Sequence record: NC_007818.1
Length of the DNA stretch: 6,068 nucleotides
Reading direction: 5' to 3' (one strand)
DNA from: Escherichia phage ID21
In this document: in pieces, positions 761 to 4,373 of the stretch
Numbering within the stretch: position 1 is the first letter of the stretch
Layout of the letters: each line of letters opens with the position of its first letter
Notes under the pieces: generated by a model
The model's input: the letters and a program-made list of their open reading frames with translations, nothing else
Told to the model about the DNA's origin: nothing
Databases searched by the model: none
Position numbers and translations under genes: made by a program

Positions 761-2245
761 ATGGCTACTGAAATCTTCTCTGATGTTGTTAAGTCTGTTT
801 GGTCGCACGCTACGGCTAAGCATTCTCATCTTCGTATGGCTGTGCAGGTTGATAACCGTAGTCGTCTTCTTTCTGATTTGGTTTACCAGCTGGAAAAGCG
901 CCTCTCTGAAGAGACTCATCTGGATGATGAGACTTATGCTCTTTATGAATCTCAAACTGGTCTCTTGGAGGACCATATGGCGCTGGTTCGGAAGTGTGCT
1001 GCCCAACTTGATAATAGTAACACTATAGACCACCGTACTCCTTTGGACTCCGAATGTGTTTTCCTCTTTGAGATGATTTGCCCCGGTGTTCGCTACGGTA
1101 AAACATTGAATTCTCTTTGGACCAAGTATGTTGCCCAGTGGCCTGAGAAGTTGATTCGTCAGGAGCTTGATATGGTTAAGCCTTTATCCTTTAAGGATGA
1201 GGTTGCCAAGTACATGGAGAAAATGCAGGAAAAGACACGCAAAAATCGCATGACTCAGAAAGTAATTAATGAGATGCGTATTGCTCACCAGAAAGGCTGG
1301 TTCTTCGTATTTGATACGTTGACCCTTGCCGATGACCGTTTGCAGGCTTTTAATGAAAACCCAAATGCTCTTCGTGATTATTTCAGGACTGTTGGTCGAG
1401 CTGTTCTGCGCGCTGAAGGCCGCTCGGTTAAGGATTCCTACAACGACTGCTATCGCTATCTTTGTGTGCCGGAGTTTGGAGGTCAGCATGGCCGTCTTCA
1501 TTGGCACGTTGTGCATATGGTGCGGACTCTTCCTTTGGGAAGTCACGACCCTAATTTCGGTCGCAAGGTACGTAATTATCGCCAGATTAACTCGTTCCGT
1601 GGCATGTGGCCTTATGGCTTCACGCAACCGATAGCTGTACGCTATCAACATGATGCTTATTCTCGCAAAGGTTGGCTGTGGCATGTTGACAAATCAGGAA
1701 AAGCAATGCAGAGTAAGCCTTATCAGGCGGTCGCATGGTATGTGACCAAGTATGTGGCTAAGCAGTCTGACCAGCGTCAGAAAGCTATTACCGAGAGACA
1801 AAAGAAATGCAAGAATCCACTTATGGCAATATGTCTGAAAAAGGAATTCAGAGTTCGCAGCAGCCGGAAGCTCGGAATGGAGTTGCCGTCGATGGCGCAT
1901 CTCAGCAACAAGGTACTTCTGGAACTGAGTCGAATCAGCTTCGATTCCAGCCCTCTGTATCAGATAGTGAAAGAGAACGCCAAAAAGCAATTGACCTTGA
2001 ACATCGGCGCGCTGCCTTTACACGTCATTTTGGATGTGCGCCCGGAAGTGAGAAGTATGTTGAAAAATATCCGTCGTTTGATGAAAAAGACACCCGAGTT
2101 CAATTGGCAGAGTTCTATCGCTTCAATGACGGTCACCTTAAAAAATGGGGATATTTCTAATGAAGCACGTCAATACATTATTGATGCAGGAATTACGCCT
2201 TCTGATTTGCGAGCTAAAGCGACTCAAACTTTCGGCGGTAAGTGA
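761..2245 (+). CDS. A: Replication initiation protein A (rolling-circle HUH endonuclease), 494 aa
   Basis: ORF track 761..2245. Contains AWYVTKYVAK with two tyrosines (Y327, Y331) matching the phiX174 gpA active-site YVAKYVNK motif as I recall it, plus an HUH-like LHWHVVH. Central and C-terminal regions align with recalled phiX174 gpA (GWFFVFDTLTLADDRL, NPNALRDYFR, DPNFGRKVRN). Contains the origin at 1004-1033. Confidence 0.95.
   Translation: MATEIFSDVVKSVWSHATAKHSHLRMAVQVDNRSRLLSDLVYQLEKRLSEETHLDDETYALYESQTGLLEDHMALVRKCAAQLDNSNTIDHRTPLDSECVFLFEMICPGVRYGKTLNSLWTKYVAQWPEKLIRQELDMVKPLSFKDEVAKYMEKMQEKTRKNRMTQKVINEMRIAHQKGWFFVFDTLTLADDRLQAFNENPNALRDYFRTVGRAVLRAEGRSVKDSYNDCYRYLCVPEFGGQHGRLHWHVVHMVRTLPLGSHDPNFGRKVRNYRQINSFRGMWPYGFTQPIAVRYQHDAYSRKGWLWHVDKSGKAMQSKPYQAVAWYVTKYVAKQSDQRQKAITERQKKCKNPLMAICLKKEFRVRSSRKLGMELPSMAHLSNKVLLELSRISFDSSPLYQIVKENAKKQLTLNIGALPLHVILDVRPEVRSMLKNIRRLMKKTPEFNWQSSIASMTVTLKNGDISNEARQYIIDAGITPSDLRAKATQTFGGK
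1004..1033 (+). other. Viral (+) strand origin of rolling-circle replication; predicted gpA nick between G1010 and A1011
   Basis: CAACTTGATAATAGTAACACTATAGACCAC matches the phiX174 30-nt origin CAACTTG/ATATTAATAACACTATAGACCAC (recalled) at 27 of 30 positions; the three differences are in the AT-rich middle. Confidence 0.85.
1214..2245 (+). CDS. A*: A* protein: in-frame internal restart of gene A (start uncertain: ATG 1214, 1223 or 1250)
   Basis: phiX174 makes A* from an internal in-frame ATG about 25 residues before the conserved GWF motif. Here in-frame ATGs lie at 1214, 1223 and 1250 before GWFFVF, and AAGGATGAGG (1193-1202) is an SD-like element upstream of 1214. Confidence 0.45.
   Translation: MEKMQEKTRKNRMTQKVINEMRIAHQKGWFFVFDTLTLADDRLQAFNENPNALRDYFRTVGRAVLRAEGRSVKDSYNDCYRYLCVPEFGGQHGRLHWHVVHMVRTLPLGSHDPNFGRKVRNYRQINSFRGMWPYGFTQPIAVRYQHDAYSRKGWLWHVDKSGKAMQSKPYQAVAWYVTKYVAKQSDQRQKAITERQKKCKNPLMAICLKKEFRVRSSRKLGMELPSMAHLSNKVLLELSRISFDSSPLYQIVKENAKKQLTLNIGALPLHVILDVRPEVRSMLKNIRRLMKKTPEFNWQSSIASMTVTLKNGDISNEARQYIIDAGITPSDLRAKATQTFGGK
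1807..2160 (+). CDS. B: Internal scaffolding protein B (117 aa), nested in gene A in another frame
   Basis: ORF track 1807..2160. C-terminus ...RVQLAEFYRFNDGHLKKWGYF parallels recalled phiX174 gpB ...RIQPAEFYRFHDAEVNTFGYF. Stop TAA 2158-2160 overlaps the K start as TAATG. Confidence 0.85.
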   Translation: MQESTYGNMSEKGIQSSQQPEARNGVAVDGASQQQGTSGTESNQLRFQPSVSDSERERQKAIDLEHRRAAFTRHFGCAPGSEKYVEKYPSFDEKDTRVQLAEFYRFNDGHLKKWGYF

Positions 2246-2520: not shown

Positions 2521-2979
2521 ATGTCTAATCTCGTTGCTACCGATGTTAATTTTGCTACTTCTGTTGCTGCTCTGAAGATGCTTCAGGCTTCAGCCGTTTT
2601 GGATATTACCGAAGAGGATTTTGATTTTCTGACTGGTGATAAAATTTGGATTGCTACCGACCGCAACCGCGCGCGTCGTTGTGTAGAGGCTTGCGTTTAT
2701 GGGACACTGGACTTTGTCGGGTATCCTCGCTTTCCTGCTCCTGTTGAGTTTATTGCTGCCGTCATTGCTTATTATGTTCATCCCGTTAACATTCAGACGG
2801 CCTGCCTCATCATGGAAGGCGCGGAGTTTACAGAAAATATTGTTAATGGCGTCGAGCGTCCGGTTAAAGCCGCTGAGCTCTTCGCGTATACCTTGCGTGT
2901 TAAGGCCGGATTCAAAGAGACGGTTTTAAGCGCTGAGGATAATGCTCGTCAGAAACTGCGTGCAAGTGGAGTTATGTAA
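2521..2979 (+). CDS. D: External scaffolding protein D (152 aa)
   Basis: ORF track 2521..2979. Near-identical over long stretches to recalled phiX174 gpD (RARRCVEACVYGTLDFVGYPRFPAPVEFIAAVIAYYVHPVNIQTACLIMEGAEFTEN). SD TAGGAG 2509-2514. Confidence 0.97.
   Translation: MSNLVATDVNFATSVAALKMLQASAVLDITEEDFDFLTGDKIWIATDRNRARRCVEACVYGTLDFVGYPRFPAPVEFIAAVIAYYVHPVNIQTACLIMEGAEFTENIVNGVERPVKAAELFAYTLRVKAGFKETVLSAEDNARQKLRASGVM
2699..2929 (+). CDS. E: Lysis protein E (76 aa), nested in gene D in the +1 frame
   Basis: ORF track 2699..2929. N-terminus MGHWTLSGILAFLLLLSLLLPSLLIMFIP matches the phiX174 E transmembrane domain (MVRWTLWDTLAFLLLLSLLLPSLLIMFIP, recalled), including the conserved proline. GAGGC lies upstream of the ATG. 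Confidence 0.85.
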   Translation: MGHWTLSGILAFLLLLSLLLPSLLIMFIPLTFRRPASSWKARSLQKILLMASSVRLKPLSSSRIPCVLRPDSKRRF

Positions 2980-3089: not shown

Positions 3090-4373
3090 ATGTCAAACGT
3101 GCAAACTTCCGCTGAACGTATTCCTCACGACCTCTCTCATCTGGTTTTTGATGCAGGCAAAATTGGTCGTTTAAAGGTTGTTTCTTGGACTCCTGTTGTT
3201 GCAGGTGATTCTTTTGAGCTTGATATGATTGGCGCTATTCGCCTTTCTCCGCTTCGTCGTGGCCTTGCTGTTGACTCTCGCGTTGACCTGTTCACGTTTT
3301 ATGTTCCTCATCGTCATGTATATGGTGAGCAGTGGATTGAGTTTATGAAGCAAGGTGTTGATGCTGCTCCTTTGGCCCCTGTTCAGTGCTCTCGCGGTTG
3401 GGATAGTGCTCAGTATCTTGCTACCATTCCGTCTAGTAACCTGAAGGTTCCTAAGTTTCTTCATCAAGGTTACCTGAATATTTATAACAACTATTTTAAA
3501 GCTCCGTGGATGGATGATTTGACTTATGCCAATCCGTCCAATATGGAAGGTGAAGATGTTCGTTTTGGTGTTCGCGCATGTAACCTGAAGACTATCTGGA
3601 CTGCCCCTCTGCCGCCGGATACCGAGACCTCTCATTCTATGGAGACCGAGACTAACTCCATTGATATTATGGGTTTACAGGCTGCTTATGCTCAATTGCA
3701 TACTGAGCAGGAGCGTGATTACTTTATGACTCGTTATCGTGATATCGTTAACGAATTTGGAGGTAGCACGTCTTATGACGCGGATAATCGTCCTCTTCTG
3801 GTTATGCACTCTGAGTTTTGGGCTTCAGGCTATGACGTCGACGGCACCGACCAAAGCTCTCTCGGTCAGTTCTCCGGTCGTGTCCAGCAGACGTTTAAGC
3901 ATTCAGTACCGCGATTCTTCTGTCCTGAGCATGGCACTATGTTTACACTCGCATTGGTCCGCTTCCCGCCGACCCATGAGATGGAGATGCATTACTTAGT
4001 TGGTAAGGAAGATTTGACTTATACTGATTTGGCTTGTGACCCAGCTCTGATGGCTAACTTGCCTCCGCGTGAGGTTAATATGTCTCAGTTCTTCCATTCT
4101 GGAAGTACTAGTGCTAAGTTTAAGATCGCTGAAGGTCAGTGGTATCGTATGCAGCCTGACCGTGTTGCTCTGCCTTATAACTATCTTGATGGTTTCCCGT
4201 TCTATAGCGCGATTCCGTCTGATGATATTAAGCAGCGTGTTCTGGTTAATACTGATAACTACGATGAGGTTTTCCAGTCTATGCAACTTGCTCACTGGAA
4301 TATGCAGACTAAGTTTAACTGCACCATTTATCGTAATATGCCGACTACTCGTGATTCTATTATGACTTCTTGA
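3090..4373 (+). CDS. F: Major capsid protein F (427 aa)
   Basis: ORF track 3090..4373. Long near-identical stretches to recalled phiX174 gpF (LSPLRRGLA, YVPHRHVYGEQWI, YLNIYNNYFKAPWM, SYDADNRPLLVM, GYDVDGTDQ, PRFF.PEHGTMFTLALVRFPP, KFKIAEGQWYR, TTRDSIMTS). Confidence 0.97.
   Translation: MSNVQTSAERIPHDLSHLVFDAGKIGRLKVVSWTPVVAGDSFELDMIGAIRLSPLRRGLAVDSRVDLFTFYVPHRHVYGEQWIEFMKQGVDAAPLAPVQCSRGWDSAQYLATIPSSNLKVPKFLHQGYLNIYNNYFKAPWMDDLTYANPSNMEGEDVRFGVRACNLKTIWTAPLPPDTETSHSMETETNSIDIMGLQAAYAQLHTEQERDYFMTRYRDIVNEFGGSTSYDADNRPLLVMHSEFWASGYDVDGTDQSSLGQFSGRVQQTFKHSVPRFFCPEHGTMFTLALVRFPPTHEMEMHYLVGKEDLTYTDLACDPALMANLPPREVNMSQFFHSGSTSAKFKIAEGQWYRMQPDRVALPYNYLDGFPFYSAIPSDDIKQRVLVNTDNYDEVFQSMQLAHWNMQTKFNCTIYRNMPTTRDSIMTS

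What the first reader, a model, noticed from the sequence alone, without database searches (positions are those of the whole stretch)
1004..1033. Rolling-circle origin inside gene A, conserved at the nick and recognition flanks but altered in the AT-rich spacer
The first 10 nt (CAACTTGATA) and last 13 nt (ACACTATAGACCAC) are identical to the phiX174 origin as I recall it, but the middle reads ATAGTA where phiX174 has TTAATA. gpA nicking and binding determinants are thus preserved while the spacer differs, which bears on origin specificity between phage clades. The active-site tyrosines (Y327, Y331 in YVTKYVAK) are present in the same gene.
Basis: partly seen in the sequence, partly recalled or inferred. 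Interest (0 to 1): 0.45.

Follow-up and report, generated by a model that had tools for sequence, protein, structure and literature searches.

The report
Alpha3-type phage rolling-circle replication origin
This is the ordinary, long-known replication start site of an alpha3-like relative of phage phiX174; its two-base "altered spacer" is the standard version carried by every sampled member of that phage group, not a peculiarity of this genome.

Summary
Window 1004-1033 reads CAACTTGATA-ATAGTA-ACACTATAGACCAC. It matches the annotated phiX174 viral-strand origin (NC_001422 4299-4328) at 28 of 30 positions. The two differences are T>A at 1014 and A>G at 1017. The 30-mer lies in frame in gene A, whose product is a Phage_GPA HUH nuclease with HWH and YVTKYVAK (Y327, Y331).

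The window is a complete alpha3-clade microvirus genome, 93% identical to phage ID32. ATAGTA is the fixed allele of that clade: alpha3, St-1, phiK, WA13, ID32 and the others are 30/30 identical to the window. phiX-like, G4-like and two more distant relatives carry TTAATA. Among 569 phage records there are only these two classes and no 29/30 intermediate.

Within 16 distinct alpha3-like sequences, the longest invariant run in the first 873 nt of gene A is 1004-1035, while 53% of third codon positions vary elsewhere. Selection therefore acts on the DNA itself.

The idea that the spacer sets clade specificity is untested here. As I recall the 1980s literature, phiX gpA cuts alpha3 and St-1 DNA, which argues against it.

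Two weak leads: the substitutions complete a 5-bp inverted repeat, and a predicted DNA-wedge phenylalanine of gpA is serine in this clade.

Verdict: already known, low interest.

The parts
1004..1033 (+). 30-nt viral-strand (rolling-circle) origin, alpha3-clade allele
   Evidence: 28/30 to the phiX174 origin 4299-4328 and to G4 500-529. 30/30 to alpha3, St-1, phiK, WA13, ID32 and others. 0 of 30 sites vary among 16 distinct alpha3-like sequences.
1004..1013 (+). CAACTTGATA, the gpA recognition/cleavage decamer. The inferred nick lies between G1010 and A1011.
   Evidence: Identical to phiX 4299-4308. phiX rep_origin is annotated at 4306, and G4305/A4306 is given as the cleavage site in bioRxiv 10.64898/2026.07.25.740675. 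The nick position is inferred by homology and was not assayed.
1014..1019 (+). AT-rich spacer ATAGTA (phiX/G4: TTAATA). The differences are at 1014 and 1017.
   Evidence: only these two alleles were seen in IMG/VR, metagenome and phage-record searches. Both changes are at second codon positions (I>N, N>S).
1020..1033 (+). ACACTATAGACCAC, 3' part of the origin (the gpA binding or 'key' sequence in the classical description)
   Evidence: Identical in the phiX, G4 and alpha3 clades. In Pectobacterium phage Mimer, positions 28 and 30 of the origin differ. The functional label comes from my own knowledge of the classical literature.
1014..1026 (+). 5-bp inverted repeat ATAGT-AAC-ACTAT, completed by the two clade-specific substitutions (a weak lead, not an established element)
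   Evidence: the hairpin is -1.4 kcal/mol in the alpha3 allele against +4.4 in the phiX allele. It ranks in the top 3.6% of 3915 double mutants. The overall fold is not significant (z +0.69).
761..2245 (+). gene A, rolling-circle initiator gpA (494 aa)
   Evidence: Pfam Phage_GPA PF05840, E 3.5e-59. 96-99% identical to alpha3-clade gpA and 44% to phiX and G4 gpA. The alpha3 record annotates gene A at 759-2243.
1499..1507 (+). HUH motif (H247-W248-H249)
   Evidence: Aligns with phiX H263-F264-H265.
1739..1762 (+). YVTKYVAK with catalytic tyrosines Y327 and Y331
   Evidence: Aligns with phiX Y343 and Y347.

Best explanation
Window 1004-1033 is the viral-strand (plus-strand) origin of rolling-circle replication of an alpha3-clade microvirus (Bullavirinae, Alphatrevirus).

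By homology with phiX174, gpA is encoded by the same gene that contains the site. It binds the origin on supercoiled replicative-form DNA and opens the AT-rich middle. It then cuts the plus strand between G1010 and A1011 and becomes covalently joined to the 5' phosphate through one of the tyrosines Y327/Y331. The free 3'-OH primes synthesis. After one round, the second tyrosine cuts the regenerated site while the displaced strand is sealed into a circle.

The spacer ATAGTA is not a change in this genome. It is the fixed, probably derived, allele of the whole alpha3 clade. It is held constant by selection on the DNA itself, superimposed on the gene A reading frame.

Shown here: sequence identity, position, reading frame, clade distribution, DNA-level constraint and the initiator motifs. 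Inferred by homology: the nick position and the reaction steps.
For: Match to the reference origin:
- The match to the annotated phiX174 origin is 28/30, against 0 expected by chance.
- The site occupies the same in-frame codons of gene A in all three clades (Q82-H91 in the window, Q107-H116 in phiX, Q148-H157 in G4).
- These codons sit in an N-terminal region that is otherwise almost unalignable.
- It is the only 30-mer in gene A with at least 26/30 identity to both phiX and G4.

Clade distribution:
- All alpha3-like genomes sampled carry the identical 30-mer: alpha3, St-1, phiK, WA13, ID32, NC35, NC29, NC28, ID62, IMG/VR contigs and 4 metagenome contigs.
- Of 569 phage records, 545 match the phiX allele exactly (at least one, phage Mimer, only over positions 1-27), 24 match at 28/30, and none at 29/30.

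DNA-level constraint:
- Among 16 distinct alpha3-like sequences the longest invariant run in the first 873 nt of gene A is 1004-1035.
- None of the 30 origin sites varies, while 53% of third codon positions vary outside it. A naive P for 10 invariant third positions is about 5e-4.
- In phiX174, saturation mutagenesis found detrimental synonymous mutations at Q107-D115, including the spacer codons I110 and N111 (bioRxiv 10.64898/2026.07.25.740675).

Initiator: gpA is Phage_GPA, and its HUH motif and both tyrosines are conserved.
Against: Nothing contradicts the identification. The limits are these:
- The alpha3-clade GenBank records inspected do not annotate a rep_origin.
- The origin is not the most conserved 30-mer genome-wide; stretches of gene D/E and gene F are 30/30 or 29/30 identical to phiX.
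- The classical biochemical papers on the alpha3 and St-1 origins could not be read in the held library.
Confidence: 0.95

Rival explanations
1. The two spacer substitutions are a specificity determinant. They have co-evolved with alpha3-clade gpA so that each clade's initiator prefers its own origin.
For: The difference is fixed between clades, with no single-step intermediates among 569 records. The spacer is invariant within the clade, even at synonymous sites. In phiX, synonymous spacer changes are detrimental.

The gpA residue aligned with phiX F471 also tracks the spacer. A 2026 preprint proposes this residue as part of a wedge entering the AT-rich region. It is F in all four TTAATA lineages (phiX, G4, IMG/VR contig L014, phage Mimer) and S in all ATAGTA sequences.
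Against: The pattern reflects only one evolutionary event, so the co-occurrence has no statistical weight. gpA is only 44% identical between clades, so many residues differ anyway. The other proposed wedge residue, F455, is Q or L in two TTAATA lineages and hypervariable within the alpha3 clade.

From my own knowledge (Heidekamp, Baas and Jansz 1982, J Virol 42:91; Baas 1987, J Mol Biol 198:51; neither could be read here): phiX gpA cleaves alpha3 and St-1 RF DNA at this site, and small changes in the spacer do not block cleavage in vitro.
Confidence: 0.12
2. The block is conserved because the decapeptide QLD(NS)NTIDH matters for gpA protein function. On this view the two differences reflect selection on residues 85-86, not on the DNA.
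For: Both differences are nonsynonymous second-position changes (I>N, N>S). The decapeptide is an island of protein conservation.
Against: All 10 third codon positions are invariant across 16 alpha3-like sequences, although 53% of third positions vary elsewhere. They are also identical across three clades whose surrounding protein sequence is unalignable. Synonymous mutations at these codons are detrimental in phiX. The invariant block begins exactly at base 1 of the 30-mer (1004), with a variable site at 1003, and runs two bases past its 3' end to 1035.
Confidence: 0.03
3. The two substitutions were selected because they complete a 5-bp inverted repeat (ATAGT-AAC-ACTAT, 1014-1026). This would give the alpha3-clade origin a small hairpin or dyad next to the nick, as in many other HUH-initiator origins.
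For: Each substitution turns a mismatch (T.T, A.C) into a Watson-Crick pair in the same stem. The hairpin energy goes from +4.4 to -1.4 kcal/mol. The allele ranks in the top 3.6% of all 3915 double mutants and in the top 3.7% of 135 spacer double mutants.
Against: The hairpin is marginal at 37 C, and the 70-nt region folds no better than shuffles (z +0.69). The test is post hoc, with p about 0.04 for a single event. The nick lies outside the stem-loop. The phiX and G4 origins work without such a stem. There is no covariation within the clade, because nothing varies there.
Confidence: 0.05

Closest known systems
Viral-strand origin of bacteriophages alpha3, St-1 and phiK (Alphatrevirus)
   Same: Identical 30/30, at the same position in gene A (alpha3 1002-1031, St-1 1001-1030). 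gpA is 96-99% identical.
   Different: Nothing differs in the origin itself. The surrounding genome is only 84-93% identical to known records; the best match is ID32 at 93%.
phiX174 ori(+) (4299-4328, nick G4305/A4306) and the identical G4 origin
   Same: 28/30 identical. The nick decamer and the 14-nt 3' part are the same. The site is in frame in gene A. The initiator has the same HUH and two-tyrosine motifs.
   Different: The spacer is ATAGTA instead of TTAATA, so one G:C pair sits in the AT-rich stretch and the encoded residues are NS instead of IN. gpA is only 44% identical. The residues aligned with phiX F455 and F471 are N and S.
Hairpin-loop origins of other HUH Rep systems (CRESS-DNA viruses, geminiviruses, pT181-type plasmids)
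   Same: An HUH/tyrosine initiator nicks a specific plus-strand site to prime rolling-circle synthesis.
   Different: There is no stable stem-loop presenting the nick (z +0.69). The nick lies 5' of the only, marginal, 5-bp inverted repeat.

Membership tests
phiX174-type 30-nt viral-strand origin of Bullavirinae | Sequence match to the 30-nt origin consensus, including the CAACTTG^ATA cleavage decamer | tested here: met
   28/30 to phiX and G4, and the decamer is identical. There is one site in the window against 0 expected by chance.
phiX174-type 30-nt viral-strand origin of Bullavirinae | Located on the plus strand inside gene A, at the homologous in-frame codons | tested here: met
   Codons 82-91 of ORF 761-2245 align with phiX codons 107-116 and G4 codons 148-157.
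phiX174-type 30-nt viral-strand origin of Bullavirinae | Cognate initiator of the Phage_GPA family with an HUH motif and two juxtaposed catalytic tyrosines | tested here: met
   PF05840, E 3.5e-59. HWH at residues 247-249, and Y327/Y331.
phiX174-type 30-nt viral-strand origin of Bullavirinae | Constraint on the DNA sequence beyond what the coding requires | tested here: met
   0/30 variable sites and the longest invariant run (1004-1035) among 16 alpha3-like sequences, against 53% variable third positions elsewhere.
phiX174-type 30-nt viral-strand origin of Bullavirinae | AT-rich spacer between the cleavage decamer and the 3' binding part | tested here: met
   ATAGTA is 5/6 A+T, against 6/6 in phiX. 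The length is unchanged.
phiX174-type 30-nt viral-strand origin of Bullavirinae | gpA cleaves between position 7 (G) and position 8 (A) on supercoiled DNA and supports replication and packaging | not testable with these tools
   This needs a nicking assay or an origin-plasmid assay. The cut site is inferred from the phiX annotation and from the preprint text.
Alpha3-clade (Alphatrevirus) origin allele | Spacer ATAGTA with otherwise canonical flanks | tested here: met
   30/30 identity to alpha3, St-1, phiK, WA13, ID32, NC35, NC29, NC28, ID62 and related contigs.
Hairpin-loop HUH Rep origins (CRESS/geminivirus/pT181 type) | Nick site presented in the loop of a stable stem-loop | tested here: not met
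   The 70-nt region folds at -3.8 kcal/mol with z +0.69. The only local hairpin (1014-1026, -1.4 kcal/mol) does not contain the nick.

The most novel reading that the evidence does not exclude
The two fixed spacer substitutions of the alpha3 clade are not neutral. They are co-adapted with clade-specific changes in gpA: loss of the predicted phenylalanine wedge (phiX F471 > S452, F455 > variable), possibly together with the newly completed 5-bp dyad ATAGT/ACTAT. If so, origin opening or termination works somewhat differently, and origins are not freely interchangeable between clades in vivo.
Probability: 0.1. Interest if true: 0.4.

Novelty: already known. Interest (0 to 1): 0.1.

Why it matters
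It matters little beyond correct annotation. The site marks the plus-strand origin and the inferred nick in a new alpha3-like genome, whose closest relatives' records inspected here lack a rep_origin feature.

The comparison does document cleanly that natural Bullavirinae carry essentially only two origin alleles, with no intermediates. Each allele is frozen within its clade, even at synonymous sites. This is a compact example of a DNA signal overprinted on a reading frame.

If the spacer and gpA differences were shown to be co-adapted, they would offer a simple natural handle on how a hairpin-less HUH initiator opens its origin.

Tried and rejected
- Classical papers: I tried to read the work on the alpha3, St-1, U3 and G14 origins and on origin mutagenesis (Heidekamp 1982, van Mansfeld 1986). 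They are not held in the library. Statements from them are marked as my own knowledge.
- phiX mutagenesis data: I tried to extract the measured fitness of phiX T4309A (I110N) and A4312G (N111S) from the 2026 saturation-mutagenesis preprint. The stored supplementary tables are truncated; one stops at gpA residue 106, four residues short.
- Genome-contig scan with a gpA alignment: the 80 loci kept (of 188 relatives found) all look like phiX174 spike-in contigs in unrelated bacterial assemblies, so it gave no new origin diversity.
- Viral-contig scans with gpA and with a three-clade gpA alignment: both returned only the same 19 Bullavirinae contigs already found by the DNA pattern.
- Hairpin-type origin: rejected. 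The fold is no better than shuffles.
- Protein-only constraint: rejected on synonymous-site invariance.
- The two-phenylalanine 'wedge' as a clean covariation: only F471 tracks the spacer allele. F455 does not.

Full report
**What the window is.** The 6068-nt window aligns end to end with complete genomes of alpha3-clade microviruses. The best match is Escherichia phage ID32 at 93% identity. WA13, WA45, NC35 and NC29 are at about 92%, and alpha3, phiK and St-1 at 84-85%. Gene order and coordinates match the alpha3 reference, where gene A is annotated at 759-2243. The corresponding ORF in the window is 761-2245 and encodes 494 aa. The window is therefore a full genome of a new alpha3-like phage (Bullavirinae, Alphatrevirus).

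**Checking the observation.**
- Window 1004-1033 reads CAACTTGATAATAGTAACACTATAGACCAC.
- The phiX174 reference NC_001422 reads CAACTTGATATTAATAACACTATAGACCAC at 4299-4328, with rep_origin ('origin of viral strand synthesis') annotated at 4306. G4 has the identical 30-mer at 500-529.
The window differs at two positions: 1014 (T>A, origin position 11) and 1017 (A>G, position 14).
- A search allowing three mismatches finds this single site, and none in 200 shuffles.
- G1010/A1011 correspond to phiX G4305/A4306.
- Y327 and Y331 in YVTKYVAK are present and align with phiX Y343 and Y347. The HUH motif is H247-W248-H249. gpA matches Pfam Phage_GPA at E 3.5e-59.
- The only slip is that the 3' flank is 14 nt, not 13.

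**The spacer is a clade character, not an alteration.** I scanned IMG/VR for the two flanks with any 6-nt spacer.
- Every alpha3-like contig has ATAGTA. This includes the database copies of alpha3, phiK, St-1, WA13, ID32, NC35, NC29, NC28 and ID62.
- Every phiX-like or G4-like contig has TTAATA.
- The same scan of metagenome contigs gave 78 TTAATA sites, mostly phiX, and 4 ATAGTA sites, all with alpha3-like flanks. No third allele appeared.
- The 19 Bullavirinae gpA loci found in IMG/VR by protein homology are the same 19 contigs. The exact-flank requirement therefore excluded nothing there.
- In the phage-record collection, 569 records match the phiX 30-mer. Of these, 545 are exact (at least one, phage Mimer, only over positions 1-27), 24 are at 28/30, and none is at 29/30. 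The window's own 30-mer is 30/30 to alpha3 and St-1.
- Two more distant relatives also carry TTAATA: IMG/VR contig L014, and Pectobacterium phage Mimer, whose origin differs only at positions 28 and 30. ATAGTA is therefore most simply the derived state of the alpha3 clade.

**Selection acts on the DNA.**
- gpA of the window is only 44% identical to phiX and G4 gpA, and the N-terminal third is essentially unalignable. Yet Q82 L83 D84 and N87-H91 form an invariant island exactly over the origin.
- At the nucleotide level, this is the only 30-mer in gene A with at least 26/30 identity to both phiX and G4. Stretches of genes D/E and F are even more conserved.
- Within the clade I compared 16 distinct sequences over the first 873 nt of gene A. 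205 sites vary, including 149 of 291 third codon positions. None of the 30 origin positions varies.
- The longest invariant run in that alignment is 1004-1035. It starts at the first base of the 30-mer, and position 1003 is variable.
- With 53% of third positions variable outside the origin, ten invariant third positions have a naive probability of about 5e-4.
- This agrees with a 2026 saturation-mutagenesis preprint on phiX174. It reports detrimental synonymous mutations at Q107, L108, D109, I110, N111, N112, T113, I114 and D115 and attributes them to ori(+) (bioRxiv 10.64898/2026.07.25.740675). Those positions include the two spacer codons, so the spacer is not a free linker in either clade.

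**Mechanism.** By homology with phiX174, gpA binds the origin on supercoiled replicative-form DNA and the AT-rich centre is opened. The plus strand is cut between G1010 and A1011, and the 5' phosphate is joined to a tyrosine. The 3'-OH primes rolling-circle synthesis. The second tyrosine cuts the regenerated origin while the displaced strand is ligated into a circle (reaction outline as summarised). Shown here are the sequence, position, frame, motifs and constraint. The cut site and the chemistry are inferred.

**Does the spacer bear on clade specificity?**
- Nothing computed here shows it. The difference is one fixed event.
- From my own knowledge of the classical literature, which the library does not hold: the alpha3, St-1, U3 and G14 origins were mapped by cutting their RF DNA with phiX gene A protein (Heidekamp, Baas and Jansz 1982). 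Small insertions or deletions in the spacer left in vitro cleavage intact but impaired packaging (Baas 1987). That argues against the spacer being a recognition switch for nicking.
- It leaves open quantitative or in vivo effects.

**Two leads noticed on the way.**
- The two substitutions each convert a mismatch into a Watson-Crick pair in the same small stem: ATAGT (1014-1018), loop AAC, ACTAT (1022-1026). The hairpin energy is -1.4 kcal/mol, against +4.4 for the phiX allele. The alpha3 allele ranks in the top 3.6% of all 3915 double mutants of the phiX 30-mer for single-strand stability.
- That hairpin is marginal, and the region as a whole folds no better than shuffles (z +0.69). The test is post hoc, and the nick lies outside the stem.
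- The preprint proposes, from an AlphaFold 3 model plus mutational data, that phiX F455 and F471 wedge into the AT-rich part of the origin. In the window these positions are N436 and S452.
- The F471 position is F in all four TTAATA lineages and S in all ATAGTA sequences. The F455 position is Q or L in two TTAATA lineages. It is N, T, A, I or H within the otherwise 96-99% identical alpha3-clade proteins.
- This is one evolutionary event in proteins that differ at more than half their residues. It is a hint, not evidence.

**Verdict.** The 'altered spacer' is the normal, previously sequenced allele of alpha3-type phages. The finding is already known and of low interest. The most novel reading not excluded is co-adaptation of spacer and initiator, with a probability of about 0.1.

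Noticed in passing
window 2066-2068 (N436) and 2114-2116 (S452); L003, L009, L017, L097 and others: The gpA residue aligned with phiX F455 is a proposed DNA-wedge residue. It is hypervariable (N/T/A/I/H) among alpha3-clade gpA proteins that are otherwise 96-99% identical. The residue aligned with F471 is S in every alpha3-clade sequence and F in every lineage carrying the TTAATA spacer.
   Followed up: partly
window 1014-1026: The two clade-specific spacer substitutions complete a perfect 5-bp inverted repeat, ATAGT-AAC-ACTAT. In phiX and G4 the same positions give only 3 of 5 pairs.
   Followed up: partly
window 1009-1020: One non-coding frame across the origin reads four consecutive stop codons (TGA TAA TAG TAA). 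The other non-coding frame hits TAG at 1026-1028.
   Followed up: no
window 2725-2876 (gene D/E overlap): Several 30-mers here are 30/30 identical to phiX174 and G4, although the genomes are otherwise about 75% identical or unalignable. This is either very strong constraint on the D/E overlap or past exchange between clades.
   Followed up: no
L190 2131-2160 (Pectobacterium phage Mimer, ON872163): This more distant phiX-like phage carries CAACTTGATATTAATAACACTATAGACAAG. Positions 1-27 and 29 are identical to phiX, and only positions 28 and 30 differ. Its gene A is annotated in several pieces.
   Followed up: partly
L110-L189 (genome contigs): 188 stretches in bacterial and archaeal assemblies of unrelated taxa (for example Methanoculleus, Bifidobacterium, Helicobacter) encode a gpA relative. 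The 80 loci kept are contigs of roughly 3.7-10.7 kb, most 5.4-5.5 kb, each showing the same 44% identity to the window's gpA as phiX174 does. Almost certainly these are phiX174 sequencing spike-in contamination.
   Followed up: no
L036-L102 (contig FUFK010037421.1, 327,964 nt): One metagenome contig holds dozens of phiX-type origins. Where two fall in one locus they are spaced 5386 nt apart. It looks like a concatemeric mis-assembly of phiX174 reads.
   Followed up: no
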